Source of the DNA: a virus
Lineage: Duplodnaviria; Heunggongvirae; Uroviricota; Caudoviricetes
Direction: 5' to 3' (one strand)
Length of the DNA stretch: 20,689 nucleotides
Virus record (IMG/VR): IMGVR_UViG_2671180298_000002
Location: 1 to 20,689 of that record
Shown: piece by piece, positions 259 through 19,554 of the stretch
Numbering within the stretch: the first letter of the stretch is position 1
How the letters are laid out: each line of letters opens with the position of its first letter
Position numbers and translations under genes: made by a program
Notes under the pieces: model-generated
What the model saw: only the letters and a program-made list of their open reading frames with translations
Told to the model about the DNA's origin: nothing
Databases searched by the model: none

Positions 259-267
259 TCGTCTGAC

Positions 268-300
268 AAGCCCTCGCGTTGAGGGCTTTACTGATTTTTT
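268..300 (+). terminator. Hairpin plus T-tract downstream of grxA; overlaps the ybjM stop
   Basis: Inverted repeat AAGCCCTC-gcgtt-GAGGGCTT (268..288) followed by TTTTTT at 295..300. Confidence 0.55.
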
Positions 301-2620: not shown

Positions 2621-2732
2621 AACTGAAGTTGCCCTGAAAATGAAATTTTTTTGCACAACCGCAGAACTTTTCCGCAGGGCATCAGTCTTAATTAGTGCCA
2701 CTGCTTTTCTTTGATGTCCCCATTTTGTGGAG

Positions 2733-2775
2733 CCCATCAACCCCGCCATTTCGGTTCAAGGTTGATGGGTTTTTT
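2733..2775 (+). terminator. Rho-independent terminator in the host flank between ybjL and the prophage end
   Basis: Perfect 10-bp stem CCCATCAACC / GGTTGATGGG (2733..2742 and 2760..2769) with a 17-nt loop, followed by TTTTTT (2770..2775). Confidence 0.6.
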
Positions 2776-2833
2776 GTTGCCTGAAATTTATGCTGTTTAA
2801 AATCATGATGTTAGAAGCACTGTTTTTTAACGA

Positions 2834-2855
2834 TGGCGACAAAATGGCGGCAGCG
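2834..2855. repeat. Candidate att core, ogr-proximal prophage end
   Basis: TGGCGACAAAATGGCGGCAGCG; 21/22 identical to 20650..20671; lies immediately before the ogr stop codon (2856..2858). Confidence 0.6.
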
Positions 2856-3074
2856 TCAAAGAGAGAGCGCCACCTGTCCTGATTTCATTGGATGCGGCTG
2901 AACCGGATTTGACTCTTTTGGCGTTGCAATCGAACGAACAAAAGTTTCATGGGTAACAAAAGTATGGCTGCAGTTAATGTTCTGGCACTGGTTGTAACGC
3001 TCTTTGGTCAATGAAGATACCTGAAAACTGCTGCGAGTATGGGCGGCACTTCCACACAGTGGGCAAATCATCAT
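2856..3074 (-). CDS. ogr: Ogr/Delta-type zinc-finger late-gene activator
   Basis: 72-aa product MMICPLCGSAAHTRSS...ERYNQCQNINCSHTF with a CxxC...CxxxxC zinc finger, resembling P2 Ogr (MFHCPLCQHAAHARTS...). Start set at the ATG preceded by GGGGAG; the tracked ORF extends further 5'. Confidence 0.85.
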   Translation of the reverse strand: MMICPLCGSAAHTRSSFQVSSLTKERYNQCQNINCSHTFVTHETFVRSIATPKESNPVQPHPMKSGQVALSL

Positions 3075-3164
3075 TTTTCGAGTTCTCCCCATTTTTGCTA
3101 AATTCACAATAATGATACCGCATTATTCCATTTTGCAAACTTAAAAGTTCTCCATTGCGAAGAA

Positions 3165-4265
3165 TCATTCCATTTCGAAATCATCAATCCTCACTTCAAG
3201 CTCCAGACTGGTCGTAAAACCGTTATCCGGGCTGACGGTATGCGTCAGAGTCGTAATGCTCCATTCCGCATCATCTATCGGCTGTTTAAAGCCACTGACT
3301 TTCACTGGCATTTCCGTGTAGAGATCTGCCCGCCCTTCCGCCAGTTGTAGCGAGAATGACGCAACGCCGCGTTGCAGGCGTTCCCACTGCATTTTCGCTG
3401 CCCGTTCAGCGTTGCTCCGGTTGGCATAAGTGCGATTAAGTACCAGCACGTTTTCATCCGTCCCCACCAGGTAATCGCCCTGCTTCGCTTCCGGCTCTTT
3501 CTTCTGCTTCTTAGTCCTGCGCTTACGCTTCACCGTAGTGCTTTCTTTCTTCGCGGGTTCGCGGGTATGCAACCAGCTGGCAATTACCCCCGTGTAAGCT
3601 CCGCGATCTGCCAGGGTAAAGCGGTGACTGTCGCCGTCCTTACGTGTGATAGTAATCACCGGCAGTGGTTTACCGCTGGCGCTTTTGCCCTGTCCCTGCC
3701 GGATGAATAACAGATTGCCATTTTTCACCGATGCAATGGCACCGTACTGGCGCGCCAGCCGCATCAAAAAACTGCCGTCACTCTCATTAGTCTGGTCTAT
3801 ATGCTCCACGGGCTTATCCGACAGGTCTTTACCCAGTGCCATCTTCAGCTTGTGCCGCGCGGCTATTTCCTTCACCACTTCCCCGATGGTGGTGTTATGC
3901 CACGATTTTTCACGGCGGGTATTCAGCGTTTCCCGAAAATCAGCACTTCGCGCCCGGATAGTCAGGCGGTCCGGTGCGCCAGTGTGTTCAATCTCGTCCA
4001 CCGTGAATGCCCCTTTCGGGAAAAGCGGCTGCCCCTTCCAGCCCAGCGCCAGCGTAATGACCGCACCACGGCGCGGCAGCACGATTTTTCCGTCGGCGTC
4101 GTCCAGCTCCAGATCAAGTTGGTCCGCTTCAAAGCCCCGATTGTCCGTCAGCGTCAGACTCATCAGGCGGTTATCCAGCACAGTGGTGATATCCTTCCCC
4201 TCAATACTGATGCTGAATGCGGGAGTTTTGTTTCCTTTGTTAAGCAGTTCAGAGCTGAAATTCAC
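3165..4265 (-). CDS. D: Phage tail protein D (late control gene D family)
   Basis: 366-aa ORF; gene order ogr-D-U-T and size match P2 gpD; overlaps the U stop (ATGA). Confidence 0.88.
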   Translation of the reverse strand: MNFSSELLNKGNKTPAFSISIEGKDITTVLDNRLMSLTLTDNRGFEADQLDLELDDADGKIVLPRRGAVITLALGWKGQPLFPKGAFTVDEIEHTGAPDRLTIRARSADFRETLNTRREKSWHNTTIGEVVKEIAARHKLKMALGKDLSDKPVEHIDQTNESDGSFLMRLARQYGAIASVKNGNLLFIRQGQGKSASGKPLPVITITRKDGDSHRFTLADRGAYTGVIASWLHTREPAKKESTTVKRKRRTKKQKKEPEAKQGDYLVGTDENVLVLNRTYANRSNAERAAKMQWERLQRGVASFSLQLAEGRADLYTEMPVKVSGFKQPIDDAEWSITTLTHTVSPDNGFTTSLELEVRIDDFEME

Positions 4266-4747
4266 GACAGCAGCCCTCCCACCGTTTTACTGATATCGCT
4301 TAAGGCAGACGTTGCCGTGTCCTGCAGATTATTCAGTTGAGTACTGAGATCACCGAACATATCGGACAGGGATTCATCCACCCGTTTTAGCGAAAGGGTG
4401 AACTCAATCCTGCGCGGCATACCGTCGCGGAAAAACTCCGTTTTAGTCTGATTCAGTCCCTCAATCACATACATGCCGTAAATCGTGCCGCTGCCTTCAA
4501 TCAGGGGCCATGCTTTCCCCTGTTCTGCCATCTGCTCCAGTGCCAGCAACGACAGCCTGCCGCCTGTTATCTCCGGCATAAGAACACCGGAAAGCGTCAG
4601 CATGTCGTTTTCCGGTCCCAGAAACTGCGTGGACGGACGACGGTTTACCCGGCTGTTTGCCGCATGTCGCCAGCTGCGTTGATACTGCAGTTCCTGATAC
4701 GGAACGGTGCGCAGCATAAACACGTACAATCCCAGCACCATCATCAT
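4262..4747 (-). CDS. U: Phage tail protein U
   Basis: 161-aa ORF starting MMMVLGLYVFMLRTVPYQELQYQRSWRH, recognised as P2 gpU; translationally coupled to the T stop. Confidence 0.85.
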   Translation of the reverse strand: MMMVLGLYVFMLRTVPYQELQYQRSWRHAANSRVNRRPSTQFLGPENDMLTLSGVLMPEITGGRLSLLALEQMAEQGKAWPLIEGSGTIYGMYVIEGLNQTKTEFFRDGMPRRIEFTLSLKRVDESLSDMFGDLSTQLNNLQDTATSALSDISKTVGGLLS

Positions 4748-5928
4748 GCGTCGTATCCCCCCTGATCGCTGTAGTTACTCCTGGCTTTTGCCTTCAGCCT
4801 GCGTTCACGTTCATCAAGCTGGCGTGCCACCTCCCGCGCAATATCCTGCGCACTTTGTCCTGGCTGCGTCTGAATGATGATCTGCGTCGGTGCCTCAATC
4901 CGTTGAACGAGCGGCACAGTGGCTGCGCGACTCACAATTGCTTCTCCACCTTTCGCGGGAAGTGCCAAAGGGTGCAACGGTGGAAGCTCTGCTGGCGCGG
5001 CAGCAACGCCCATCATTCCGGCAACAACGGCAGCCAGTGCAGCTGTATTTCTCCGGCTGGTCACATTTGCCGGGCCGTTAACAATTTCCGGCCCGTTTTC
5101 ACCGACGATGCCAAACTGCCCACGCGGGATATAGCCGCCGCTGTCATACATCCCCGCAAAGCCATATCCCCATGACGGAAAACCACCCGATGGCATCATC
5201 ACTTTACCGTCTGCATTCACCGTCGCAGGTTGCTGACGCGTCACGCTTTCCGGCAGTTTCGCCTTTGCAGCCTCTTTACTGACAATGCCGAGTTTATCCA
5301 GCAACCAGGAAACGCCAGATTTCAGGGAGTCCAGCGGATGCATAACCATATTCAGCCCTTCCGCCAGTGCCTCCCCGAATCGTCGCCCCATTGCCGCTGC
5401 GCTCTGCAGTTCGGCAGAGGTCGACTTAACGGGCGTCAGCAGATCAGTAAACCAGCCCCAGAGCGCCTGCACTTTGTCGCCAATCCACTGAAACACAGGC
5501 TTAAGTGGTTCGAATGCTGCACTGACGGGACCTGCCGCCGCTTTGAATCCTTCCACCACGCCACCAAGAAATGCGGTGATGGGTTGCCAGTATTTCCAGA
5601 CAACCAGCGCCACGCCCGCCAGTGCAGTAACCACAAGACCTATCGGACTGAGCAGAGCACCTAACAGACCAGATACGGCATACAGGGCAACGCGCAGCAT
5701 CGCCAGTGGACCAGATGCCAGTACTCGCAGCACCGTGCCTGCGGCGACCAGTCCACCGCGCAGTACCGCCAGAGGATTCATAAACATCACAGCAACAGCA
5801 CGTAAACCGGATAATCCAGACCGCAAAAGTGCAACCGGCGCACCTGCTACAGTTTTCATGACATTTCCCGTCAGTGATGCCGTGCGGCGCAAAGATGACA
5901 ACGGTGCAGTAAGTAAACCCGCAACCAC
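4744..5928 (-). pseudogene. T: Tail tape-measure protein T, 5'-truncated C-terminal fragment
   Basis: About 394-aa Gly/Ala-rich ORF immediately upstream of U; P2 gpT is about twice this length; the open frame is closed by a stop at about 5953..5955, some 25 bp from the divergent P start. Confidence 0.6.
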
Positions 5929-5977: not shown

Positions 5978-7744
5978 ATGAACACCACACTGACACCCGC
6001 AGATCTCGATCCCCGTCGGCAGGCCATGCTGCTGTACTTTCAGGGATACCGCGTAGCCCGCATTGCTGAAATGCTGGGCGAGAAAGTTGCAACCGTTCAC
6101 AGCTGGAAAAAACGCGACAAGTGGGGTGACTATGGGCCGCTGGATCAGATGCAGCTCACCACCGCCGCACGCTACTGCCAGCTCATTATGAAGGAGCACA
6201 AAGAAGGGAAAGATTTCAAAGAGATTGACCTGCTGGCGCGCCAGTCGGAGCGCCATGCGCGGATCGGCAAGTTTAACAATGGCGGCAACGAAGCCGACTT
6301 AAACCCTAACGTCGCCAACCGCAACAAAGGCCCGCGCCGTCAGCCGGAAAAGAACGTTTTCACCGATGAACAGATTGAGAAGCTGGAAGAAATCTTCCAT
6401 TCCTCCATGTTCAACTACCAGCGCCACTGGTGGGAAGCCGGAAAAACCAACCGCATCCGCAACCTGCTGAAGTCACGCCAGATCGGCGCGACCTTCTATT
6501 TTGCCCGTGAAGCCCTGATTGACGCCCTGCTAACCGGGCGTAACCAGATTTTCCTTTCCGCCAGCAAGGCTCAGGCCCACGTCTTTAAGCAGTACATCAT
6601 CGACTTCGCCAAAGAAGTGGAGGTGGAGCTGAAAGGCGATCCGATGGTGCTTCCTAACGGGGCCACGCTGTACTTCCTCGGCACCAATGCCCGCACGGCC
6701 CAGAGTTACCACGGCAACCTGTATCTGGATGAATATTTCTGGATACCGAAATTCCAGGAGCTGCGCAAAGTGGCTTCCGGTATGGCTATTCACAAAAAAT
6801 GGCGACAAACCTATTTTTCCACGCCATCCAGCCTGACACACAGTGCTTATCCGTTCTGGTCCGGTGCGCTGTTCAACCGAGGGCGCAACAAAGCCGATAA
6901 GGTGGACATCGACCTGTCCCACAGCAATCTGGCCCCCGGCCTGCTGTGCGCAGACGGGCAGTACCGCCAGATAGTCACTGTGGAAGATGCGGTGCGCGGC
7001 GGCTGTAACCTGTTCGACCTCGACCAGTTGCGCATGGAGTACAGCCCGGACGAATACCAGAACCTGCTGATGTGTGAGTTCGTGGACGATCTCGCGTCTG
7101 TGTTCCCACTCAGCGAGCTGCAGGCGTGCATGGTAGACAGTTGGGAAGTCTGGACCGACTTTCATGCACTGGCCCTGCGCCCGTTTGGCTGGCGCGAAGT
7201 GTGGATCGGATATGACCCGGCGAAAGGTACGCAGAACGGCGACAGCGCCGGATGCGTGGTGGTGGCGCCGCCAGCCGTGCCGGGCGGTAAGTTCCGCATT
7301 CTTGAGCGTCACCAGTGGCGCGGAATGGACTTTCGCGCCCAGGCTGACGCCATCAAAAAACTGACCGAACAGTACAACGTGACCTATATCGGTATCGACT
7401 CAACCGGCGTTGGTCACGGGGTTTACGAGAACGTGAAAGCGTTTTTTCCTGCCGTCCGGGAGTTTGTCTACAACCCCAACGTTAAAAACGCCCTGGTACT
7501 CAAGGCCTACGACATTATCAGCCACCGCCGTCTGGAGTTTGACGCCGGACACACCGACATAGCGCAGTCCTTTATGGCAATCCGTCGCGCCACCACCGCC
7601 AGTGGCAACCGCCCGACCTATGAAGCCAGCCGCAGCGAAGAAGCCAGCCACGCCGATCTGGCCTGGGCAACGATGCACGCACTGTTTAACGAACCGCTGC
7701 AGGGCGAATCCGCCAATACCAGCAATATTGTGGAGATTTTTTGA
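5978..7744 (+). CDS. P: Terminase large (ATPase) subunit, P2 gpP-like
   Basis: 588-aa ORF; size and position next to portal Q fit P2 gpP; 3' end overlaps the Q start. Confidence 0.9.
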   Translation: MNTTLTPADLDPRRQAMLLYFQGYRVARIAEMLGEKVATVHSWKKRDKWGDYGPLDQMQLTTAARYCQLIMKEHKEGKDFKEIDLLARQSERHARIGKFNNGGNEADLNPNVANRNKGPRRQPEKNVFTDEQIEKLEEIFHSSMFNYQRHWWEAGKTNRIRNLLKSRQIGATFYFAREALIDALLTGRNQIFLSASKAQAHVFKQYIIDFAKEVEVELKGDPMVLPNGATLYFLGTNARTAQSYHGNLYLDEYFWIPKFQELRKVASGMAIHKKWRQTYFSTPSSLTHSAYPFWSGALFNRGRNKADKVDIDLSHSNLAPGLLCADGQYRQIVTVEDAVRGGCNLFDLDQLRMEYSPDEYQNLLMCEFVDDLASVFPLSELQACMVDSWEVWTDFHALALRPFGWREVWIGYDPAKGTQNGDSAGCVVVAPPAVPGGKFRILERHQWRGMDFRAQADAIKKLTEQYNVTYIGIDSTGVGHGVYENVKAFFPAVREFVYNPNVKNALVLKAYDIISHRRLEFDAGHTDIAQSFMAIRRATTASGNRPTYEASRSEEASHADLAWATMHALFNEPLQGESANTSNIVEIF

Positions 7745-8790
7745 TGGGAAAGAGTAAGAAGAACCGCGCTGCGGCGACGAAACAGATCCAGCTTAAAAGT
7801 CAAACTACAGCCGAAGCATTCAGCTTCGGCGATCCCGTTCCTGTTCTGGACCGCCGAGAACTGCTGGATTATGTGGAATGCGTACAGATGGATCGCTGGT
7901 ATGAGCCGCCCGTCAGTTTTGACGGACTGGCACGAACCTTCCGCGCCGCTGTGCATCACAGCTCCCCCATCAGTGTTAAGCGTGACATTATCAGCAGTAC
8001 CTATATTCCGCATCGTCTTCTCAGTCAGCAGGCATTTACCCGTTTTGTGCAGGACTATCTGGTTTTTGGTAACGGCTACCTGGAGAAGCGCACGAACCGT
8101 TTCGGTGAAGTTATTTCGCTGGAGCCTGCACTGGCAAAATACACCCGGCGCGGGCTTGACCTTGAAACATACTGGTTTGTGCAATACGGTATGTCCACCC
8201 AGCCATATCAGTTCACGAAAGGCAGCATCTTTCATCTGATGGAACCGGACATCAACCAAGAAATCTACGGCCTGCCCGGTTATCTTTCTGCTATTCCATC
8301 CGCCCTGCTCAACGAGTCTGCCACGCTGTTCCGCCGCAAGTATTACATTAACGGCAGTCATGCAGGCTTCATCATGTACATGACCGACGCCGCGCAGAAC
8401 CAGGAGGATGTAAACAACCTCCGCAACGCGATGAAAAGTGCCAAAGGTCCTGGTAACTTCCGTAACCTATTTATGTACTCGCCAAACGGCAAAAAGGACG
8501 GGCTTCAGATCATCCCGTTGTCAGAAGTCGCGGCGAAGGATGAGTTTTTGAATATCAAGAACGTCAGCCGTGATGACATGATGGCGGCACACCGTGTGCC
8601 GCCACAAATGATGGGTATTATGCCGAATAATGTTGGGGGGTTTGGGGATGTAGAAAAGGCAAGCCGTGTCTTTGTCCGCAACGAGTTGATACCTCTGCAG
8701 AAACGCCTACAGGAACTTAACAACTGGTTGGGCGATGAAGTTATACGTTTCGAGCCGTACACTTTAGATATTCAGAATGAAAAGAAATAA
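7741..8790 (+). CDS. Q: Portal protein, P2 gpQ-like
   Basis: 349-aa ORF directly after the terminase; size matches P2 gpQ. Confidence 0.88.
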   Translation: MMGKSKKNRAAATKQIQLKSQTTAEAFSFGDPVPVLDRRELLDYVECVQMDRWYEPPVSFDGLARTFRAAVHHSSPISVKRDIISSTYIPHRLLSQQAFTRFVQDYLVFGNGYLEKRTNRFGEVISLEPALAKYTRRGLDLETYWFVQYGMSTQPYQFTKGSIFHLMEPDINQEIYGLPGYLSAIPSALLNESATLFRRKYYINGSHAGFIMYMTDAAQNQEDVNNLRNAMKSAKGPGNFRNLFMYSPNGKKDGLQIIPLSEVAAKDEFLNIKNVSRDDMMAAHRVPPQMMGIMPNNVGGFGDVEKASRVFVRNELIPLQKRLQELNNWLGDEVIRFEPYTLDIQNEKK

Positions 8791-8817
8791 AAGTTAGCGA
8801 ATAAAAATCATTAGTAT

Positions 8818-8838
8818 AGGCCGCAAACTGAGCGGCCT
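8818..8838. terminator. Bidirectional hairpin between convergent Q and the cargo gene
   Basis: AGGCCGC-aaactga-GCGGCCT stem-loop with T-rich flanks on both strands. Confidence 0.55.
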
Positions 8839-8844
8839 TATTCA

Positions 8845-9114
8845 TTACCAATTTCTTTTTTCGGAGTTTAGCCAATCACCGCATGGATAATATCTTGACG
8901 CCCATTCACCTTGTAAACGAGCTACAAACAGAATATCGTTACTATCGACCTTGGCTTGGAGTCCGTCACGCAGTTGAGTTGCGGTCAGCGTTGTATCTAC
9001 TAACCAAAATGATTCAAGATATTTACAGTATGTAAATTGCTTTAGATAGTCAAAAACTTCATCGTAGTTTCTTCCCGGAGCCTTCAAGTCATAGGTTATA
9101 CAATAAATAGCCAT
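8845..9114 (-). CDS. Hypothetical small alpha/beta protein, possibly Cas2/VapD-like fold
   Basis: 89-aa ORF; GGAG 8 nt upstream of the ATG; starts 3 nt after the Zn-ribbon ORF stop; AT-rich; pattern MAIYCITYDL...YLESFWLV...ILFVARL resembles the Cas2 layout (recognition by eye, unverified). Confidence 0.6.
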   Translation of the reverse strand: MAIYCITYDLKAPGRNYDEVFDYLKQFTYCKYLESFWLVDTTLTATQLRDGLQAKVDSNDILFVARLQGEWASRYYPCGDWLNSEKRNW

Positions 9115-9117
9115 TCT

Positions 9118-9300
9118 CTAAGCTCCGCATTTTTTATCATTTGGGGAACATCTTAACCTGCGACATTTGCGGCAATACGATTGAGGGATCAGCCGCTCTC
9201 CTTCCATAGTTCTAAAACCAAACACTTCTTCAATTTTGTTCAAATCACCACTTGCAATAACCCCACAGCAGGGGCAGACAGCCTCAATTTGAAATGCCAT
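9118..9300 (-). CDS. Hypothetical small zinc-ribbon protein
   Basis: 60-aa product MAFQIEAVCPCCG...YCRKCRRLRC with Cys pairs; GGAG 6 nt upstream of the ATG at 9300; the tracked ORF extends to a TTG at 9363. Confidence 0.55.
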   Translation of the reverse strand: MAFQIEAVCPCCGVIASGDLNKIEEVFGFRTMEGERLIPQSYCRKCRRLRCSPNDKKCGA

Positions 9301-9463
9301 GTCTATCTCCATTCCACATGTTGAATGTAGGGTAATACTTCCTTTCAAGCAAAAATGAGACAAGGATCTTAAAACCTAATTTAAACTTGCTTGCGCGCGC
9401 TCGTATCCCCGCCACGCCTGCCCGCTTTATGTAGTGGTTTTCATGCAGATGCATGCTCTACGC

Positions 9464-9492
9464 AAAAGCCCGCCAGTTCTGGCGGGCTTTTG
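9464..9492. terminator. Hairpin separating the three-gene and two-gene cargo modules
   Basis: AAA-AGCCCGCCAG-tt-CTGGCGGGCT-TTT; GC-rich 9-10 bp stem with A/T flanks on both sides. Confidence 0.6.
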
Positions 9493-9554
9493 CAAAAACG
9501 ATCCTCAAACGATCATGCGATTTCATGCAGCATAGACATGCAAAGTAGAAACTG

Positions 9555-9971
9555 CTATTTAACGTCCGGCGTTTGCGCTGTGGGGGATACTTTTCCATCT
9601 AGCGTATTTACAATTGAGAGGGGGTAAATTCCCATTTCAATTCCACAGATCACGTCGTAACGAGCCTGCGCTTTCTCTCGCATTTCTGGAGAAACAGGGG
9701 ACGATGGTGCATTTAAAACTGCTTCGGCTTGCTTCTTCAGAGCCTTCAACCGCCTTTTCAGTTTGATTTCTTGCGGATCAACAGCATAAATCGTCCATGC
9801 AAAAGTAAAAACTTCGCTTAAAAGAATTGACACCATCGGTATTGAAGCAATGTAAAGGTCTTTCCATGTTGGATCTGTAATGAAGCTAGCCAGCTTTATT
9901 AGGAAAAGGCCTACACCGCCGCCACCTGTAACACCGACTGCTTTACCGCTTGTTTTCTTTTGTTCAGGCAT
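9555..9971 (-). CDS. Hypothetical small membrane protein (two predicted TM helices), third gene of the cargo operon
   Basis: About 138 aa from the ATG at 9971 (tracked ORF starts at a GTG at 9995); Gly-rich stretch then hydrophobic helices (GVGLFLIKLASFI; IASIPMVSILLSEVFTFAWTIYAV); overlaps the upstream gene by 8 nt. Confidence 0.6.
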   Translation of the reverse strand: MPEQKKTSGKAVGVTGGGGVGLFLIKLASFITDPTWKDLYIASIPMVSILLSEVFTFAWTIYAVDPQEIKLKRRLKALKKQAEAVLNAPSSPVSPEMREKAQARYDVICGIEMGIYPLSIVNTLDGKVSPTAQTPDVK

Positions 9972-10227
9972 GAGAGGCTGACTCCTTCCTCTCACGCTTA
10001 TTTTTCTCTGCTATATCATCGATGAGCTTTATTAACTCATCATCATTGTTTATATAAATATTTGTTTTATAGACATTTTTGTTTGCATCAGTATAAGTGA
10101 TAGAAACTTTTGTTTCGACAATAACTCGATCGAGCAGGCTACGTATAGCCACTCTAGCACCTATAAATATAGCTGGAGCTGCAACAAGCAGCCCCAACCA
10201 TCCTAACACACTAATATCTATAGACAT
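9964..10227 (-). CDS. Hypothetical single-pass membrane protein, second gene of the cargo operon
   Basis: 87 aa; N-terminal TM helix (VLGWLGLLVAAPAIFIGARVAI) then a charged soluble tail; ATG lies 2 nt after the upstream stop. Confidence 0.6.
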   Translation of the reverse strand: MSIDISVLGWLGLLVAAPAIFIGARVAIRSLLDRVIVETKVSITYTDANKNVYKTNIYINNDDELIKLIDDIAEKNKRERKESASHA

Positions 10228-10229
10228 TT

Positions 10230-11123
10230 TTAATCCGCATCAGGTTTTATTTTTCTATCTTTGGCGGCAAAGTGTCGACCCACTTTGATGATCGATAACT
10301 TTTCGTCTACCTGGCCACCGGAATCTTTCACAATTTTCTTCATCTTCACAGCAAACAATTCGCCAAAAATTTTGGGGGCGTCTGGTCCAGTAACAAGCTT
10401 GATGAACTCATTATCTTCCATTCTGACATTGCGCTTTTCACCGCCAAACTCAACACGCCAGCCACTTTTTTTGTCAGTATGCGCCGAAACGAATGTCACG
10501 GTTGTTTCAAATTCGTCAACTTCTTCTTTGGTTTCAAAGAGAACTTTTGGCGACTTAAACTCTTCTGCCTCATCTTTATGAATTTTGAGGATTTCTTTCT
10601 TAGAGGTGCGCGATTTTTTTACCACAAAATTGTCGATACCATCTTGTAACAGAGGCTGTCTGACAAACGCGTCAACAGCCTTACGAATCTCTGGGGCATT
10701 AACGATTTTTTCGACATCTTCAGAGCAAACAATCTCTTCACCATCGACTTTCAGCTTAACTTTGTCACTACCGTTAGCTTTCTCGACTATGTCGATCTTA
10801 CGCCCGTTAAGCTTCTTGAGAACCTCTAAAACTGTAGCACCGCCAACGGCTAAAGGAATGGCTGACAAACCTAAAATTTGTACAACATCTTTAGCATTAG
10901 CTAGATGTTGTACAACCTCAATATCAAACCCAAAGGAACCGGCTATCAATTCAGCGTCAACGTTAACTTCAATGTCTCGCCCTCCGTTTACAATCTCATT
11001 TGCAGAGTAGATAGCCTCACCTAGCCCCTGCAAACTTTTCGCAAACGAAAGAATATCCATCTTATGATCGTCGAGAGCTTTGCCTTGATACACAATACTT
11101 ACTGATTGAGTCTTATCCGCCAT
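10230..11123 (-). CDS. Hypothetical charged protein (about 297 aa), first gene of the cargo operon
   Basis: Long AT-rich ORF; first ATG at 11123 (tracked ORF starts at a TTG at 11144); K/E/D-rich with one internal hydrophobic stretch; no motif I recognise. Confidence 0.65.
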   Translation of the reverse strand: MADKTQSVSIVYQGKALDDHKMDILSFAKSLQGLGEAIYSANEIVNGGRDIEVNVDAELIAGSFGFDIEVVQHLANAKDVVQILGLSAIPLAVGGATVLEVLKKLNGRKIDIVEKANGSDKVKLKVDGEEIVCSEDVEKIVNAPEIRKAVDAFVRQPLLQDGIDNFVVKKSRTSKKEILKIHKDEAEEFKSPKVLFETKEEVDEFETTVTFVSAHTDKKSGWRVEFGGEKRNVRMEDNEFIKLVTGPDAPKIFGELFAVKMKKIVKDSGGQVDEKLSIIKVGRHFAAKDRKIKPDAD

Positions 11124-11259
11124 TGAGTTCAGATCCGTTGCCAATAAAATGCGCGCGATTTTACGCCCATCACTATGTTTAATCTATCTATTAATCATTT
11201 ATCCCTCTAGCTGTCTACTATCGGACTCAAAAAACATGACTCATTACAAACGAAACCTA

Positions 11260-11493
11260 TCAATGCAGCCAGCTGTCGTCTTCCCACACCTTCTGCATAA
11301 TTTTCATCACTTGCTTCCTTTCTTCGTCCAGTTGCAGTCCGGTCAGTTCCACACCGTTAGAGCTACCTTTGCGAATGCGAATTACCGTTTTGGGATACAG
11401 GGGGCGCAGATTGCGGTAAAGCTCGGATTCAAGGGCGTCCAGGGTAGACTGGCTAATCTTCTGCTCTTTATCGATCATTATTTCAATGCGCAT
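11260..11493 (-). CDS. DinI-family protein (Tum-like SOS-inducible antirepressor candidate)
   Basis: 77-aa product MRIEIMIDKEQKISQSTLDALESELYRNL...KIMQKVWEDDSWLH aligns by eye with E. coli DinI (MRIEVTIAK...AIDALAGELSRRI...ILQETWESADDWF); GAGGTG 5 nt upstream of the ATG. Confidence 0.82.
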   Translation of the reverse strand: MRIEIMIDKEQKISQSTLDALESELYRNLRPLYPKTVIRIRKGSSNGVELTGLQLDEERKQVMKIMQKVWEDDSWLH

Positions 11494-11503
11494 AAAAGTC
11501 ACC

Positions 11504-11692
11504 TCAGCTGATGACATCCATTGAGCGGTTGTATTCGTGGGTTCTGATTTTTGCCATGAGTTCATCTGTCAGTTCAGAAACCCACTGCAGGGCCAGCCCC
11601 TTCTCTTCATCACTACACTCACTAGCCGCTACAAGCTTAAGAAAAAAATCAATGCGCTGGAGCTTCAAAGACTCCAAAAAATAGTCCTGCAT
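11504..11692 (-). CDS. Hypothetical small protein, first gene of the LexA-controlled operon
   Basis: 62 aa from the ATG at 11692, preceded by AGGAGG; a LexA box lies about 45 bp upstream; the longer tracked ORF would run through the LexA box. Confidence 0.55.
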   Translation of the reverse strand: MQDYFLESLKLQRIDFFLKLVAASECSDEEKGLALQWVSELTDELMAKIRTHEYNRSMDVIS

Positions 11693-11735
11693 CTTTCCTC
11701 CTATGACACCACAAGCAATACTGTACGCATAACCA

Positions 11736-11751
11736 CTGTTTATATTTACAG
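11736..11751 (-). promoter_or_regulatory. LexA (SOS) box
   Basis: CTGTTTATATTTACAG, a CTG-N10-CAG palindromic match to the TACTGTATATATATACAGTA consensus, embedded in an AT-rich promoter-like region upstream of the small ORF and DinI-like gene. Confidence 0.75.
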
Positions 11752-11845
11752 TATATAATAATCTTACTGATGTAAAACGTTTTTTTACGTTCATCAGTCT
11801 GATATACCTGGTATTATTAAGAGCACGAATTGTTAACCCGCGTAA

Positions 11846-14260
11846 TTAATACAGGTTCCGCCACTTATCATCTTCCTGCAAACGCTGGTTCCGATAGAAA
11901 ATACGCAGGCCTGCTCCTGACGGAATACTGCCGCCGCGAAGGAGTAAATCGACCTCTTTCTCGCTGCCATCAAATCCCCTGGACTTCAGTTCATACACGA
12001 GCTGCAGTCGCTGATGGTCTGTAATTCGCTGTTTGTAGTCTTTACGCCGTTTCGGTTTCACCAGGCGTAACCTTGCTGCCAGTTCCCGGCGCTCTTTTTT
12101 GCTCATACTGTGCAGGTAATCGTGCAACTCCTTGTCATCCATGCGGGTGATATCCGTTCTGGTATCTCCATCAGCTGATTTGTCTTTCCCTTGTTGGTAC
12201 AAATTTTCAGCAAGGGGACAGTTATTGCCACGAGTCCAAGGGGCGCAAGCGCCCTGGTCGGCTGCCGCCTCCTGAACGTCAACGGCTTTACGAACCATTT
12301 TCCACTTCACTGCATGAGTGCAGATCTTGCCCTCTGCAATGGGTGACCAGATGCCATAAATACGAATGCCGTGATCGCCATAGGCGGTCGGCTCTTCGTT
12401 GATTTCATAAGCGGTTCTGATGAGGTGATATTTACGGGGAACCAGTACGCCGCCCTGCTTCATGATGTAGGTGGCAAAACAACCAGCATCAGCAGCAGCC
12501 AGAATGGCATCAAGACGCGGGTTATCCAGTACCGGCGCACCTGCTTTTTTGTCACCCTGTTGCCTTGCCGCCTGACCAGCCAGCAAGCGAAGTTCACGGT
12601 AAGCCTGACGCCCCGGAATACCAAAGAAGCGGAATTGCTGAACACGATGCAGAGACGCCCAGGCATTCACGTATTCAGCGTTATCACGCAGAGATTTACC
12701 CGTTTCCTTGCTGATCTCGCCAGCCAGACCACGACCGTCAATGTTCTTACTGATATATTTCGCGATGTAGCTTGTCGGCGTTCCTTTGCGCGGGTTAATC
12801 AACTCAGACTTAAAGCGCGGCCCAGTGTTATTGCCCAGCTCCTCGCGGTCTTCACGGATGGCAAACTTACGCAGTAATGCAGTGATGGCACGGCGGTCTT
12901 TTTTGCGCATGAAACACAACAGGTGCCAGTGAACTGTGCCATCATGATGCGGCTCAGCCACCCGCACGCCATACCAGCGCAACCCGGCTTTGTGCATCGC
13001 CTTACGAAATGCAGCAAACATGCCGACCAGATAATCGCTGCTTTGTCTTACCGTCGCGTTTGTCCAGGTCGGGTTTGGTCTGCCGTTATTTAGCGTGGAA
13101 TGGAAACGCGACGGACAGGTGATAGTGTAGAAAACGGCGCAGTCACCGCGCATTTCCGCGATAAGCTCCAGACCTTTAACACAGGCCATCATCTCATTGC
13201 GGCGATGCGCAGGGTTGCTGCTGCTGGCGTTTACCACATCCTCCATGTCCAGCGTGTCGCCGTCTTCGTTCACCAGTTCATGAGAACGGAAAAACTCCAG
13301 CGACTTACGGCGCTGCTCACGTTTATGCATCACGGCTTCATAGCTGACATAAGGAGATGCTTTTTTGCTGACCAGGCAAACAGCGCGCAACTGCTCTTCC
13401 CGCCATTCGCAACGCATCTTCCATAATTTCCGATACCACCAGTCGGCGCACAACATACGCGCCAGCGAACCCGGAATGAGTTCATACGGCACGGGTTTAC
13501 GGCGGTTTCTTTTCCGACGGAGTTGCTCAAACGCAGGTGGGATGACATCCAGACGCAGGGTTTCCGCTGCCACCTTTTCCCATGTCTTGCGGATTTCTTC
13601 TGGCTTAACGTCATCGGTGGCATACAAATCACCACAAGCTGCATCAAGGCACATACTCATATGCGCAGCTACCAAGGTGGACAGGCGTTTCACCTGATCC
13701 TGACTCATTTCAGGCAGGATCAGCAGGCCGTCCAGCCCTTCATGGCTTGCCATAAAGCGAAAAGATGCAGATAGCTGACTGTCGCGTACATGCTCCAGTC
13801 GTTCCAGACATGGCTTAATCGTCTCACGTAAATAGCGGGAATAAGCCTTTGGCCTGCCCAGGCTGCTGAAGTATTCAATACGTTGCATCAGCGGCTTGCT
13901 GATATGGGAAGGCTGGGCGTTGACGTCCGCCAGAATGACCATGTCTGAATTAAAACGCTGCTGCTCATGCGCCAGCTTTGCCCGGCTAATGAGCTTATCC
14001 TGCTCCATTTCGCGCTGGACAGGATCACGTGATTCATTAAAGAAATAACGCTCCCAGACCTGATCACTCAGTGCCTCGCGGCGCAACTGTTCCTGCTCGT
14101 TATCGGCAGCGTACAGAGTGATCAGGTTTGAAAGCGTAGAAACCGGCGCAACTTCCGCCGGGTCCAGATAAGGGTTAATGGCCTTTTTCGGGCTGTTCCA
14201 TGAGAATGCTGCGGCAGCCTCGTTAAAGCCGCAGCAGTTGTTCATATCGGCATGACTCAT
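11846..14260 (-). CDS. A: Replication initiation protein A (rolling-circle HUH endonuclease, P2 gpA-like)
   Basis: 804-aa ORF with an HUH-type motif (VHWHLLCF) and a paired-tyrosine motif (SYIAKYISK) as in P2 gpA. Confidence 0.9.
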
Positions 14261-17260: not shown

Positions 17261-17857
17261 ATGTCAACATCAAAGTACCCAAGTGAGATCAAAATAAATC
17301 CCAATAAAGGTGGTAAGGCTGCGATTGAGCGATTAGTCGAAGCCTATGGCTTTACGACACGACAGGCTTTAGCTGATCACTTGGAAGTATCAAAAAGCAC
17401 ACTAGCGAACAGGTATTTGCGGGATACATTTCCTGCTGACTGGATAATCCAATGTGCTCTTGAAACAGGAACCTCCCTCAAATGGTTAACTACCGGACAA
17501 GGCCTTAAGCAAAGCTCGCTGACAGCAGCTACAGAAGAGCTTGTTAAGTTTCGCCTTGCCGCAGGCAAAATGATTGAAGACGGTTCATATGTCTTCGATT
17601 CATCATTTCTTCCTGCAAACCTTTCATCACCAATTGTTGTTCAGGATGGACTCGTCACATACATTTGTGATCAAAAATTTTCTGAAGTACTTGATGGAAA
17701 CTGGTTAATCAATATCGACGGAACCTATTCCATTCGAAAAATCACAAGGCTTCCTAAAGGAATGATTAAAATTACAACAGCAGAGAATAGCTTTGAATGT
17801 GCATTTTCTGATATTGAAGTGGTTGCTTGTATAAGAAGTACAATAGTCTCGAATTAA
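17261..17857 (+). CDS. cI: 186-type CI immunity repressor
   Basis: 198-aa ORF; N-terminal region (AIERLVEAYGFTTRQALADHLEVSKSTLANRYLRD...ALETGTSLKWLTTGQG) resembles the phage 186 CI N-domain; divergent from the cox-like gene. Confidence 0.82.
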   Translation: MSTSKYPSEIKINPNKGGKAAIERLVEAYGFTTRQALADHLEVSKSTLANRYLRDTFPADWIIQCALETGTSLKWLTTGQGLKQSSLTAATEELVKFRLAAGKMIEDGSYVFDSSFLPANLSSPIVVQDGLVTYICDQKFSEVLDGNWLINIDGTYSIRKITRLPKGMIKITTAENSFECAFSDIEVVACIRSTIVSN

Positions 17858-17877: not shown

Positions 17878-19554
17878 ATGAATTCATTTGCCATCGTTAT
17901 ACTCTTATTAGCATTTCTCGCCCCTGTTCTAGCTGTAATATTATTTAAACAAAGTAAAAAACACAAAGCGGCTATAGATAACCTGACAGCTAACAACATA
18001 GCCCTTTCTAACCAACTGATTGAAAATCAAGAAAAACTAGCACAGACCGTACGAGAATTATCAGAGCTTGAAGGGCGAGCAGCACCATTGTGGCAATACG
18101 AAGAATTGCACAGCGCAGTAATGGATGCAGAGAATAAGATAAAAAATGCGGACTCAATAGCCAAGCAAAAAATAGATGAAGCCCAAATTAAGGCGGCTAA
18201 AACAGTAAACGAAGCAAATTATCAAGCTCAGATGACAATAAGCAACGCTAATAGCGAAGCTATAGCAATCACCAAAGACGCTCGCGATGCACGCCTGAAA
18301 GCCAAAGAACGTCTTGATAATGCTAATAATAAAGCAAATGAGCTAATCTCAAATGCTAATGACAATGCAGTAAAAATTATTTCTGATGCAGAAGAAAGAG
18401 CAAAGGAGATTGCTGGTTCAGCATATGAAGCTAAAGAGTTTGCAGAAAAATATGAAGCAGTTGCAAAATCAATGAAAAATAAAATTGAAGGTTATGGTGA
18501 TGAATGGATCATCCCTAACCGTAGTGTACTTGATGAGCTGGCAGAAAATTATGAATTTACAGATGCAGGCAAGGAATTACAAAAAGCCAGAGAGTTAACC
18601 AAATCATTAATAAAAACTAATAAAGCTGCTTCGTGTAATTATGTTGAGCAAAACAGGCGTAATACTGCCATAAACTTTGTTTTGGATGCCTTCAATGGAA
18701 GAGTTGACAGTATTTTATCAAAAGTCAAACACAACAATTTTGGAAAACTTTCCCAAGAAATAAAAGATGCATTTCAACTAGTAAATTACAATGGCTCTGC
18801 CTTTAGGTCCGCAAAAATAAGTGACATCTATCTTCAGGCAAGACTCAACGAGCTAAAATGGGGTGTAGCAGTTAATGAAATTATGCTCGAAGAAAAAGAA
18901 GAGCAAAGAAGGATTAAAGAACAGCTTCGTGAAGAGGAAAGAGCTCGTAGAGAATATGAAAAAGCGATAAAAGAAGCTGAAAAAGAAGAAAAAGCTATTC
19001 AGCAAGCTATAAATAAAGCAACGAAAGAACTTATGCTTGCAAATGAAGAACAACGCTTAGCTTTAGAGCAAAAAATAGCTGAACTACAGTTAAAATATGA
19101 AGAAGCTGAAGCTAAAAATCAACGAGCTATTTCTATGGCTCAACAAACCAGATCAGGCCACGTCTATATCATTAGTAATATTGGTTCATTTGGCGAAGAT
19201 GTATATAAAATTGGAATGACACGCCGCCTTGAACCACTTGATCGTGTTCGTGAACTCGGAGATGCTAGTGTTCCTTTTTCGTTCGATGTTCATGCGATGA
19301 TTTATAGTGATGATGCACCATCATTAGAAAACCATCTGCATAAAGTTTTCAACGAAAAGCAGGTCAATAAAATTAACTCACGAAAAGAGTTTTTTAACGT
19401 AAATTTAAAAGAAATCAAATCAGTTATTGAAGACATGAACATCAACGCCCACTGGACAATGTTTGCAGAGGCGAAAGAATATAGAGAGTCTCTAGCTATT
19501 GAGCAGGAGCGCAAAGCAGCCACTTCCGCCAACGATGAACTACATGTTGCTTAG
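17878..19554 (+). CDS. Membrane-anchored coiled-coil protein with C-terminal T5orf172 (GIY-YIG-like) domain; DUF4041-type architecture
   Basis: 558 aa; N-terminal TM helix (FAIVILLLAFLAPVLAVILF), long coiled-coil with NAN/EA repeats, C-terminal GHVYIISN...YKIGMTRR...LENHLHKVF...KEFF motif; AAGGA 7 nt upstream; 20 bp after the cI stop. Confidence 0.85.
   Translation: MNSFAIVILLLAFLAPVLAVILFKQSKKHKAAIDNLTANNIALSNQLIENQEKLAQTVRELSELEGRAAPLWQYEELHSAVMDAENKIKNADSIAKQKIDEAQIKAAKTVNEANYQAQMTISNANSEAIAITKDARDARLKAKERLDNANNKANELISNANDNAVKIISDAEERAKEIAGSAYEAKEFAEKYEAVAKSMKNKIEGYGDEWIIPNRSVLDELAENYEFTDAGKELQKARELTKSLIKTNKAASCNYVEQNRRNTAINFVLDAFNGRVDSILSKVKHNNFGKLSQEIKDAFQLVNYNGSAFRSAKISDIYLQARLNELKWGVAVNEIMLEEKEEQRRIKEQLREEERARREYEKAIKEAEKEEKAIQQAINKATKELMLANEEQRLALEQKIAELQLKYEEAEAKNQRAISMAQQTRSGHVYIISNIGSFGEDVYKIGMTRRLEPLDRVRELGDASVPFSFDVHAMIYSDDAPSLENHLHKVFNEKQVNKINSRKEFFNVNLKEIKSVIEDMNINAHWTMFAEAKEYRESLAIEQERKAATSANDELHVA

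What the first reader, a model, noticed from the sequence alone, without database searches (positions are those of the whole stretch)
11260..11760. SOS-controlled Tum/DinI-like operon, implying 186-style LexA-dependent prophage induction
A near-consensus LexA box (CTGTTTATATTTACAG, 11736..11751) sits about 45 bp upstream of a 62-aa ORF followed 10 nt later by a clear DinI-family gene. Phage 186 is SOS-inducible through the LexA-repressed tum gene, whose product has a DinI-like portion and acts on CI; this element also carries a 186-type cI. Here the unit appears as two cistrons rather than a single tum ORF. The cargo operons lie directly downstream on the same strand, so SOS read-through into them is conceivable.
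Basis: partly seen in the sequence, partly recalled or inferred. Interest (0 to 1): 0.5.

Follow-up and report, generated by a model that had tools for sequence, protein, structure and literature searches.

The report
LexA-controlled tumA/tumB prophage induction switch
This is the ordinary, already described DNA-damage trigger of 186/Fels-2-type P2-like prophages, a LexA-repressed promoter driving a 62-aa antirepressor gene and a DinI-like gene, here in a prophage that has lost its capsid, tail and lysis genes.

Summary
A CTGT-N8-ACAG LexA box (11736..11751) lies 43 nt upstream of a 62-aa ORF (11692..11504, minus strand). Ten nt after that ORF comes a 77-aa DinI-family gene (11493..11260).

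The 62-aa protein belongs to the family of the N-terminal half of phage 186 Tum. It is 98% identical to Fels-2 STM2728 and to the tum gene of E. coli HS prophage DuoHS. In DuoHS, deleting tum, or a lexA(Ind-) allele, blocks mitomycin C induction (PMC12055606). The two-cistron form is the known PSP3 tumA/tumB and Fels-2 layout, not a frameshift.

New details:
- The box is the distal member of a colicin-type pair of overlapping SOS boxes, 33/39 identical to the ColE1 cea operator.
- Box 1 is conserved upstream of tumA in 31 of 33 loci from at least 12 genera.
- tumB is absent from 13 of those 33 loci.
- No terminator separates tumB from three co-oriented cargo genes. The first is PADLOC candidate PDC-S42. 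A strong terminator follows at 9493..9462, 49 nt before cos.

Caveat: about 14.7 kb of capsid, tail and lysis genes are deleted, so the trigger cannot yield phage here.

Verdict: already known, low interest.

The parts
11771..11776 (-). -35 hexamer TTTACA of the SOS promoter (equivalent of 186 p95)
   Evidence: Sequence. Among the most conserved columns in 32 anchored orthologous upstream regions. Same layout as the annotated p95 of NC_001317. Promoter function is inferred.
11748..11753 (-). -10 hexamer TACTGT, 17-nt spacer; alternative TATACT at 11755..11750 with a 15-nt spacer
   Evidence: Identical hexamer and identical overlap with the LexA site as the annotated -10 of 186 p95. The consensus scan did not flag it because it matches only 3/6 of TATAAT.
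11734..11753 (-). LexA box 1 (distal): TACTGTAAATATAAACAGTG, core CTGT-N8-ACAG at 11751..11736
   Evidence: 17/20 to the consensus; no match in 100 shuffles at 3 or fewer mismatches. CTG-N10-CAG is present at the same place in 31 of 33 orthologous loci from at least 12 genera.
11719..11738 (-). LexA box 2 (proximal), overlapping box 1: CAGTGGTTATGCGTACAGTA
   Evidence: Same spacing and near-identical sequence to the ColE1 cea double SOS box. ColE1 has CAGTGGTTATATGTACAGTA at L005 5076..5095. The 39-nt operator is 33/39 identical to ColE1. The dual arrangement occurs in 22 of 33 orthologous loci. Only 13/20 to the consensus here, so function is less certain.
11504..11692 (-). tumA-type gene, 62 aa, predicted CI antirepressor; SD AGGAGG at 11702..11697
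   Evidence: phrog_698 at E 3.6e-38. hhalign against the 186 Tum N-half: 94.5%, E 7.6e-8. 98% identical to Fels-2 STM2728 and to DuoHS tum ECHS_RS04495. AlphaFold model is a two-helix hairpin, pLDDT 88.5.
11260..11493 (-). tumB-type gene, 77 aa, DinI family; SD GAGGTGA at 11505..11499 overlaps the tumA stop codon
   Evidence: Pfam DinI E 6.6e-23. 41% identical to 186 Tum residues 71-145. 100% identical to Fels-2 STM2726.1 and 78% to PSP3 TumB. DinI 1GHH at E 2.7e-6.
10230..11123 (-). First cargo gene, 297 aa, PADLOC candidate PDC-S42; co-oriented with tumB and with no terminator in between
   Evidence: PDLC05015 at E 8.8e-44. No terminator or promoter-like site on the minus strand in 11259..11124. 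Co-transcription is inferred.
9555..10227 (-). Two further co-oriented cargo ORFs (87 aa at 10227..9964; 138/146 aa at 9971 or 9995..9555), no family match
   Evidence: RefSeq gene calls in E. coli CPE35.
9462..9493 (-). Intrinsic terminator hairpin GCAAAAGCCCGCCAG-AACT-GGCGGGCTTTTGC, probable end of the SOS operon
   Evidence: Fold of -34.6 kcal/mol for the 71-nt fragment, z = -5.1, 0 of 200 shuffles as good. The same hairpin lies 49 nt before cos in many related loci.
9407..9418 (-). Start of the cos cohesive end (GGCGTGGCGGGG); the phage right end is at 9419
   Evidence: The PSP3 linear genome ends in ...CATAAAGCGGGCA, which matches window 9431..9419. The motif is conserved in related loci. 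This segment is the only part of the cargo region shared with DuoHS and Fels-2.
17261..17857 (+). 186-type CI repressor, 198 aa, the presumed target of TumA
   Evidence: 32% identical to 186 CI, E 3e-34. 42% to Fels-2 CI and 55% to DuoHS CI. Identical to the CI of phage vB_EcoM-813R9.

Best explanation
The region is the SOS induction module of a Fels-2/186-type P2-like prophage.

Proposed mechanism:
1. In undamaged cells LexA occupies one or two overlapping SOS boxes (11753..11719). These cover the -10 hexamer and the start site of a sigma-70 promoter located just downstream of replication gene A.
2. DNA damage activates RecA, and LexA cleaves itself.
3. The promoter fires and transcribes tumA, tumB and probably the three co-oriented cargo genes, ending at the terminator 49 nt before cos.
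4. TumA (62 aa, a two-helix hairpin) binds the 186-type CI repressor and stops it binding its operators. This derepresses the early lytic operon (cox/apl, cII, fil, dam, A).
5. TumB, a DinI homologue, probably binds RecA filaments and modulates the SOS signal. This is the role ascribed to the short C-terminal product of 186 tum.

What is shown:
- The sequence features and the homologies.
- Conservation of the operator across genera.
- The genetic requirement for tum and for cleavable LexA in a prophage whose TumA is 61/62 identical.

What is inferred:
- LexA binding to these particular boxes.
- TumA acting on this particular CI.
- The TumB role.
- Cargo co-transcription.

In this copy the prophage has lost its capsid, tail and lysis genes. 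Firing the switch could at most give early gene expression, excision and replication, not phage.
For: - Position and promoter/operator layout are the same as the annotated p95-LexA-tum unit of 186.
- Box 1 matches the consensus at 17/20; 0 of 100 shuffles do as well.
- Box 1 is conserved in 31 of 33 loci from Escherichia, Buttiauxella, Serratia, Citrobacter, Kluyvera, Raoultella, Enterobacter, Lelliottia, Pantoea, Tatumella, Erwinia, Leclercia and Klebsiella, while the flanking sequence varies.
- In the one locus where the box has decayed (L038), tumA is also frameshifted.
- TumA homology to the Tum N-half. TumB is DinI-like and matches the Tum C-half.
- PSP3 tumA is annotated 'UV induction of prophage'.
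- Published statement that the upstream half is the antirepressor: PMC3121763.
- DuoHS Delta-tum (ECHS_RS04495, the 62-aa gene) and lexA(Ind-) both block MMC lysis: PMC12055606.
- A 186-type CI is present.
- tumA occurs with its LexA box but without tumB in 13 of 33 loci. TumA is therefore the core of the unit.
Against: - No direct evidence exists for this copy. LexA binding, transcription and the TumA-CI interaction were not measured.
- The CI here is only 55% identical to the DuoHS CI and 42% to the Fels-2 CI, so TumA action on it is extrapolated.
- Box 2 matches the consensus at only 13/20 and carries two central G/C changes relative to Fels-2 and ColE1.
- BLASTP of the 62-aa ORF against 186 Tum finds nothing. 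The homology rests on profile methods.
- The in-frame tum deletion in DuoHS could in principle affect tumB translation.
- The prophage is a deletion remnant, so selection on the module here may be relaxed.
Confidence: 0.85

Rival explanations
1. In this deletion remnant the SOS promoter is retained mainly as the expression signal for the defence-type cargo (PDC-S42 and two small genes). The cargo would be switched on by DNA damage, much as 186 orf97 lies in the p95 SOS operon. The CI-antirepressor role would be secondary or vestigial here. This reading is not exclusive of the main explanation.
For: - No terminator-like hairpin and no sigma-70-like promoter lie on the minus strand between tumB and the 297-aa gene.
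- The three cargo genes are co-oriented and tightly packed, and are followed by a strong terminator before cos.
- In 186 the record annotates t95a as only a partial terminator, with orf97 inside the p95 transcript.
- Co-oriented cargo between tum and the cos terminator also occurs in L015, L021, L023, L028 and L034.
Against: - Defence genes are normally needed in the uninduced lysogen, where tight LexA repression would keep them off.
- A weak promoter in the 136-nt spacer cannot be excluded.
- In other loci the cargo at this site is on the opposite strand (L014, L018, L024) or is preceded by a terminator (DuoHS, Fels-2). Co-transcription is therefore not a general design.
- No expression data are available.
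Confidence: 0.2
2. The module is an inert relic. The prophage is decaying, and TumA no longer matches the resident CI or LexA no longer controls the promoter, so DNA damage has no effect through it.
For: - The prophage has lost about 14.7 kb of late genes.
- Box 2 carries two changes relative to Fels-2 and ColE1.
- The CI is only 42-55% identical to the CIs of the prophages where tum function is documented.
Against: - Both ORFs, both ribosome-binding sites, the promoter hexamers and box 1 are intact.
- The operator region (110/111 nt), TumA, TumB and the cargo are the same as in an apparently complete prophage of E. coli 2017.04.02CC.
- The same TumA plus the same CI occur together in phage vB_EcoM-813R9.
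- A truly decayed copy looks different: L038 has lost the box and has a frameshifted tumA.
Confidence: 0.08
3. The DinI-like protein is the real antirepressor, and the 62-aa ORF is only a leader or coupling ORF. Alternatively, the two ORFs are one frameshifted tum gene.
For: - In 186 the two parts are one polypeptide.
- A weak hairpin at the junction (11515..11498) includes the tumB Shine-Dalgarno sequence, which would allow translational coupling.
Against: - The split is conserved with the same 62-aa length and its own stop codon in 30 of 33 loci across many genera, and in PSP3 with quite different sequence.
- phrog_698 is a 63-position family that the ORF matches end to end.
- 13 of 33 loci have tumA and the LexA box but no tumB, and three more have a truncated or frameshifted tumB.
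- The gene deleted in DuoHS was the 62-aa one.
- The literature states that the upstream PSP3 gene carries the antirepressor activity.
- The junction hairpin is not significant (z = -1.4).
Confidence: 0.03

Closest known systems
Fels-2 (Salmonella LT2) STM2728 / STM2726.1 and E. coli HS prophage DuoHS tum (ECHS_RS04495) / ECHS_RS04500
   Same: - TumA is 61/62 identical to both. TumB is 100% identical to the Fels-2 protein.
- The module is 98% identical in DNA to DuoHS, including the promoter and both SOS boxes.
- It occupies the same position after gene A, and DuoHS uses the same chromosomal attachment site (rcdA/ybjL).
- DuoHS tum and cleavable LexA are required for MMC induction (PMC12055606).
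   Different: - The CI repressor is only 42% (Fels-2) and 55% (DuoHS) identical.
- Those prophages keep a terminator right after tumB and a gene of orf97 size (243 aa). The window instead has PDC-S42 plus two genes and no terminator.
- The centre of box 2 differs: GC here, AT in Fels-2, AC-A in DuoHS.
- The window copy lacks the late genes.
PSP3 tumA / tumB
   Same: - Same two-cistron layout directly after gene A, behind a LexA box that overlaps the -10.
- tumA is annotated 'similar to 5' end 186 tum; UV induction of prophage' and tumB 'similar to dinI and 3' end of 186 tum'.
- TumB is 78% identical.
   Different: - TumA is only about 20% identical. The profile match is weak (hhalign E 0.0039, probability 8.6%).
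- PSP3 has a single SOS box with a 19/20 match.
- The two cistrons are 3 nt apart in PSP3 rather than 10.
Coliphage 186 p95-tum-orf97 SOS operon
   Same: - LexA-repressed promoter after gene A, with -10 TACTGT inside the LexA site.
- Tum is an antirepressor of a 186-type CI.
- The DinI-like part is also made separately from an internal start.
- A downstream accessory gene lies in the same transcript, with a terminator before cos (PMC7708051).
   Different: - 186 Tum is a single 146-aa polypeptide, whereas here there are two genes.
- 186 has one SOS box (18/20).
- 186 has the partial terminator t95a before orf97, and the window has no equivalent.
- The N-half is recognisably similar only by profile methods.
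ColE1 cea (colicin E1) double overlapping SOS boxes
   Same: - Same architecture, CTG-N10-CAGTG-N10-CAG.
- 33/39 identical over the operator. Fels-2 is 35/39 identical and its proximal box is identical to that of ColE1.
- Colicin double boxes bind two LexA dimers and give very tight repression (PMC2994835).
   Different: - The gene controlled is a prophage antirepressor, not a colicin.
- The window has two central substitutions in the proximal box.
- Binding of two LexA dimers is not shown for any tum promoter in the papers I could read.
Gifsy prophage LexA-controlled dinI-antirepressor operons (gfoA, gftA) and N15 antC
   Same: SOS control of a small trans-acting antirepressor that binds a non-cleavable repressor. 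In the Gifsy phages it is linked to a dinI homologue (PMC3121763).
   Different: [quoted passage not shown]
- The antirepressor and repressor families are unrelated, and the phages are lambdoid rather than P2-like.

Membership tests
186 Tum / PSP3 TumA antirepressor module | Located immediately downstream of replication gene A, near the right (cos) end of a P2-like genome | tested here: met
   Gene A (Pfam Phage_GPA, E 1e-127) ends at 11846 and tumA starts at 11692. cos is at about 9419.
186 Tum / PSP3 TumA antirepressor module | Sequence homology to the N-terminal (non-DinI) half of 186 Tum | tested here: met
   hhalign gives 94.5% probability, E 7.6e-8. Both hit phrog_698, phrog_8554 and phrog_1993. 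BLASTP alone finds nothing.
186 Tum / PSP3 TumA antirepressor module | Promoter overlapped by a LexA operator | tested here: met
   The 20-mer matches at 17/20 and overlaps the -10 hexamer. It is conserved in 31 of 33 orthologous loci.
186 Tum / PSP3 TumA antirepressor module | Partner is a 186-type (long, non-LexA-like) CI repressor | tested here: met
   198-aa CI, E 3e-34 to 186 CI. A CII of Pfam Phage_CP76 lies next to it.
186 Tum / PSP3 TumA antirepressor module | The protein binds CI and prevents operator binding, and is required for SOS induction | not testable with these tools
   Shown genetically for the 61/62-identical DuoHS gene (PMC12055606) and reported biochemically for 186 Tum (Shearwin 1998, cited). 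Not shown for this copy or this CI.
DinI family (TumB) | Matches Pfam PF06183 above the gathering score over the full domain | tested here: met
   81.3 bits against a cutoff of 24.2; profile positions 1-63 of 63. Full-length alignment to DinI 1GHH, E 2.7e-6.
DinI family (TumB) | Binds RecA filaments and modulates coprotease activity | not testable with these tools
Inferred from family membership and from the 186 record note 'modulates SOS induction'.
LexA operator (E. coli-type SOS box) | CTGT-N8-ACAG palindrome with an AT-rich spacer | tested here: met
   CTGTAAATATAAACAG at 11751..11736.
LexA operator (E. coli-type SOS box) | LexA binding and damage-inducible transcription | not testable with these tools
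   Needs EMSA or footprinting and expression assays. Supported indirectly by the lexA(Ind-) phenotype of DuoHS, whose operator differs from the window's at only two positions, both in the centre of box 2.
Colicin-type double overlapping SOS boxes | Two 16-nt cores sharing one base: CTG-N10-CAG followed by (G)TG-N10-CAG | tested here: met
   Window 11751..11721 matches CTG-N10-CAGTG-N10-CAG. The same pattern occurs in ColE1 at 5063..5093, in Fels-2 and in 813R9. 33/39 identical to ColE1. Found in 22 of 33 orthologous loci.
Colicin-type double overlapping SOS boxes | Occupancy by two LexA dimers | not testable with these tools
   The proximal box matches the consensus at only 13/20 here. Footprinting is required.

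The most novel reading that the evidence does not exclude
TumA may be a cross-immunity antirepressor that recognises the conserved N-terminal DNA-binding domain of 186-type CI proteins.

The same or 98%-identical 62-aa TumA is paired with at least four different CI repressors:
- the 198-aa CI in this window;
- the 189-aa DuoHS CI (55% identical);
- the 210-aa Fels-2 CI (42% identical);
- a 312-aa CI with a duplicated N-domain in E. coli 2017.04.02CC (55% identical).

CI residues 12-82 stay 68-75% identical between these proteins, while the rest falls to 29-41%.

If this is right, one SOS-triggered element could induce other resident P2-like prophages of different immunity. That would include a defective remnant like this one.

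A further possibility is that, in this variant, defence-type hotspot cargo (PDC-S42) is part of the LexA-controlled transcript. The P2 hotspot papers I read do not discuss this.
Probability: 0.25. Interest if true: 0.45.

Novelty: already known. Interest (0 to 1): 0.18.

Why it matters
It matters little as a discovery. LexA-controlled Tum antirepressors are the textbook induction route of 186-type P2-like phages. The split tumA/tumB form is documented for PSP3 and Fels-2. The near-identical gene has been deleted and shown to be required in E. coli HS.

Practical value:
- **Annotation.** The 62-aa gene is called 'hypothetical protein', or wrongly 'levan regulatory protein', in RefSeq and phage records. 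It should be called tumA.
- **Comparative support for the operator.** The survey gives a clean phylogenetic footprint for the operator. It also shows that many of these phages use a colicin-like double SOS box.
- **Possible SOS control of hotspot cargo.** It raises a testable question: is part of the P2 defence hotspot under SOS control in some phages?
- **Remnant prophages.** It shows that SOS triggers persist in prophage remnants that can no longer make phage.

Tried and rejected
- BLASTP of the 62-aa ORF against 186 Tum gave no alignment, and Pfam gave no family. Homology had to be established through PHROG profiles and hhalign.
- The sigma-70 scan did not flag the SOS promoter, because its -10 (TACTGT) matches TATAAT at only 3/6. 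I placed it by analogy with the annotated 186 p95.
- MAFFT misaligned the LexA boxes of the window against 186 and PSP3. I compared them by eye and by pattern instead.
- The AlphaFold model of TumA is confident (pLDDT 88.5) but is a generic two-helix hairpin. Foldseek against the PDB gave no hit at E 0.001 or better. A PDB sequence search with the family profile found nothing.
- The P2 cos 19-mer I recalled from memory did not match. cos was located by matching the right end of the PSP3 linear record.
- Bunny et al. 2002 (PMC151935) and Christie and Calendar 2016 (PMC4836473) are not held. I could not check whether the Fels-2 double box has already been described.
- The colicin paper I could read gives heterology indices but no sequences. 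I did not compute a heterology index, because I do not have the published matrix.
- The single-frameshifted-gene idea and the chance-LexA-box idea are both rejected on comparative evidence.
- The hairpin at the tumA/tumB junction (11515..11498) was flagged as terminator-like, but it is not significant (z = -1.4). It lies within an operon that is conserved intact.
- A single-sequence search of 1.84 billion representatives found only 66 relatives, nearly all 50-100 aa, and none in which the TumA match is followed by a DinI-sized C-terminal extension. This subfamily appears to be stand-alone.
Full report
**1. Observation**

Everything below is read on the minus strand. Replication gene A (804 aa, Pfam Phage_GPA E 1e-127) ends at 11846. 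Downstream of it lie, in order:
- a -35-like TTTACA (11776..11771);
- a 17-nt spacer;
- TACTGT (11753..11748);
- the palindrome CTGTAAATATAAACAG (11751..11736);
- AGGAGG (11702..11697);
- a 62-aa ORF (11692..11504);
- a 10-nt gap that contains GAGGTGA;
- a 77-aa ORF (11493..11260).

The core pattern CTGT-N8-ACAG occurs once in the window. On its own it is not significant: 0.30 are expected, and 21 of 100 shuffles have one. The 20-mer is different. It matches the LexA consensus TACTGTATATATATACAGTA at 17/20, and no shuffle reaches that. The 77-aa ORF is a clear DinI-family protein (Pfam E 6.6e-23; DinI structure 1GHH at E 2.7e-6).

**2. What the two genes are**

The phage 186 record annotates exactly this arrangement after gene A: promoter p95, a LexA site whose first six bases are the -10 hexamer TACTGT, then tum.

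The 77-aa protein is 41% identical to Tum residues 71-145 (E 3e-24).

The 62-aa protein gives no BLASTP alignment to Tum and no Pfam hit. Profile methods do connect them:
- It matches phrog_698 end to end (E 3.6e-38).
- The N-half of 186 Tum also hits phrog_698 (2.7e-5), phrog_8554 and phrog_1993. The 62-aa protein hits the last two as well.
- A profile of 28 diverse relatives (A7) aligns to Tum residues 5-44 with 94.5% probability, E 7.6e-8.

The two ORFs are therefore the two halves of Tum, encoded separately.

**3. The split form is already known and has been tested**

- PSP3 has annotated tumA ('similar to 5' end 186 tum; UV induction of prophage') and tumB ('similar to dinI and 3' end of 186 tum').
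- Lemire et al. 2011 state that Fels-2 and PSP3 have tum split by a stop codon. [quoted passage not shown]
- The window's TumA is 61/62 identical to Fels-2 STM2728, and its TumB is 100% identical to STM2726.1.
- TumA is also 61/62 identical to ECHS_RS04495 of E. coli HS. The whole module is 98% identical in DNA to that prophage.
- ECHS_RS04495 is the gene deleted as 'tum' in the Phollow study. There, Delta-tum and lexA(Ind-) each abolished mitomycin C-induced lysis and virion foci (PMC12055606).
- About a quarter of complete E. coli genomes (1281 of 5426) hold DNA matching the 3.2-kb query that spans this region. Many Klebsiella and Salmonella P2-like phages carry it as well.

**4. The operator**

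A second 20-mer, CAGTGGTTATGCGTACAGTA (11738..11719), overlaps the first so that the two 16-nt cores share one base.

This is the layout of colicin promoters. ColE1 has TGCTGTATATAAAACCAGTGGTTATATGTACAGTA upstream of cea. The 39-nt operators are 33/39 identical between the window and ColE1, and 35/39 between Fels-2 and ColE1. Colicin double boxes bind two LexA dimers and give very tight repression with expression in few cells (PMC2994835). By analogy, this design would hold tum off until damage is severe; that step is inference. In the window the proximal box matches the consensus at only 13/20, so its activity is uncertain.

**5. Comparative test**

A scan of one genome per species returned 33 loci encoding TumA relatives (71-100% identical) from at least 12 Enterobacterales genera.
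- CTG-N10-CAG is present at the equivalent place in 31 of them.
- Of the other two, one contig is truncated. In L038 the box has decayed and tumA is frameshifted as well.
- Column conservation peaks at the A-run, the -35 TTTACA, TATACTGTA and AAACAGT, while the flanks vary.
- The double arrangement occurs in 22 of 33 loci. Pantoea, Erwinia and Tatumella loci have a single box.
- tumB is absent from 13 of 33 loci and is truncated or frameshifted in three more.

The conserved core is therefore the LexA box plus tumA, and the DinI-like gene is an optional accessory. This argues against the frameshift idea and against the idea that the DinI-like protein is the antirepressor.

**6. Downstream architecture**

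Similarity to other phages stops exactly at the tumB stop codon. Three co-oriented genes follow:
- 297 aa, PADLOC candidate PDC-S42, E 8.8e-44;
- 87 aa;
- 138/146 aa.

No terminator-like hairpin and no sigma-70-like site lies on that strand between tumB and the first of them. A strong hairpin terminator sits at 9493..9462 (z = -5.1). It is 49 nt before the cos motif GGCGTGGCGGGG (9418..9407). I located cos by matching the right end of the PSP3 genome.

The same terminator-plus-cos unit is conserved in many related loci. The variable cargo is inserted between it and tum. DuoHS and Fels-2 keep the 186 design, with a terminator right after tumB followed by a 243-aa gene the size of orf97. The window has no such attenuator.

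SOS read-through is thus architecturally plausible for three genes. It is not plausible for the 81-aa and 89-aa ORFs beyond cos. It is not a general rule either, because some loci have opposite-strand cargo at this site. The two P2 hotspot papers I read do not mention tum, SOS or LexA.

**7. The element is a remnant**

Compared with DuoHS, which sits at the same attachment site, the window lacks about 14.7 kb. Window 1..5922 aligns to ybjM, ybjL, ogr, D, U and the 3' part of T. Position 5922 then joins directly to the O/P intergenic region. RefSeq annotates the tape-measure gene of E. coli CPE35, which is 100% identical to the window over 8700..11900, as incomplete. Capsid, lysis, baseplate, fibre, sheath and tube genes are gone.

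The switch survives: cI, cox/apl, cII, fil, dam, A, tumA/B, cos, P, Q and int are all present. Firing it could give early expression, excision or replication, but not phage or programmed lysis. An apparently complete prophage in E. coli 2017.04.02CC carries identical TumA, TumB and cargo proteins and an operator region that is 110/111 nt identical.

**8. A lead**

Identical or 98%-identical TumA is paired with CI proteins that are only 42-55% identical to one another. One of them is a 312-aa form with a duplicated N-domain. CI residues 12-82 remain 68-75% identical, while the C-terminal part drops to 29-41%. This fits TumA recognising the conserved DNA-binding domain and acting across immunity types. 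Recombinational shuffling of the tum module would explain the pattern equally well.

**9. Verdict**

The kind is already known. Interest is low (0.18). There are modest additions: the double colicin-like operator, the optional tumB, the operon boundaries and the remnant status. There is also one testable lead, cross-immunity antirepression, possibly together with SOS control of hotspot cargo.

Noticed in passing
window ~5922 (joint); 4744..5928 (-) truncated tape-measure gene; 5978..7744 (+) terminase P: The prophage is a deletion remnant. About 14.7 kb present in DuoHS is missing: O, N, M, L, X, holin, lysozyme, lysB/C, tail completion, baseplate, fibres, sheath, tube, E/E' and the 5' part of T. 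The same deletion is in the complete genome of E. coli CPE35, where RefSeq marks the T gene as incomplete.
   Followed up: yes
window 17878..19554 (+): A 558-aa gene inserted between cI and int matches PADLOC PD-Lambda-1 (E 1.7e-120; Pfam DUF4041 plus T5orf172/MUG113). This is a second defence-type cargo site in the same prophage. E. coli 2017.04.02CC has a different gene at this spot.
   Followed up: partly
window 10230..11123 (-): The 297-aa first cargo gene after tumB matches PADLOC candidate PDC-S42 (E 8.8e-44), with only a weak Pfam DUF7946 hit. The complete cargo combination (at least 80% of the 3.2-kb query) was found in only 4 of 5426 complete E. coli genomes, and three more carry its larger part (78% of the query).
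   Followed up: partly
window 8845..9114 (-): An 89-aa ORF between cos and portal gene Q has weak Cas2-like matches in PADLOC (Cas2b E 7.9e-4, Cas2 E 3.6e-3). No other CRISPR-Cas component was seen nearby.
   Followed up: no
window 9401..9493 (-): A conserved unit of a strong hairpin terminator (9493..9462) followed 49 nt later by the cos motif GGCGTGGCGGGG. The same spacing holds in many related loci. It splits the gpA-gpQ hotspot into a tum-side and a Q-side insertion site.
   Followed up: yes
loci L013, L017, L023, L027, L031-L037, L040 (no tumB); L022, L026, L039 (damaged tumB); L038: tumA with its LexA box frequently occurs without the DinI-like tumB. In Siccibacter (L038) the LexA box and tumA have both decayed.
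   Followed up: yes
window 17261..17857 versus L004 31891..32523, L007 4701..5270, L042 3459..4397: Near-identical TumA is paired with CI repressors only 42-55% identical to one another. One is a 312-aa CI with a duplicated N-terminal domain. The CI N-domain is far better conserved than the C-domain.
   Followed up: partly
window 11504..11692 and database records: The tumA-type gene is annotated 'hypothetical protein', or mis-named 'levan regulatory protein', in RefSeq, UniRef and phage records. Gene callers often extend it upstream to 84-106 aa through the promoter and operator.
   Followed up: no
window 4525..4555 (+): A second exact match to CTG-N10-CAGTG-N10-CAG lies inside a tail gene. 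Its spacers are GC-rich and it lacks the CTGT/ACAG extensions, so it is probably chance, although the pattern was not seen in any of 100 shuffles.
   Followed up: no
window 11498..11515 (-): A small hairpin, GTCATC-AGCTGA-GGTGAC, spans the tumA stop codon and the tumB Shine-Dalgarno sequence. It would allow translational coupling, but its stability is not significant (z = -1.4).
   Followed up: partly
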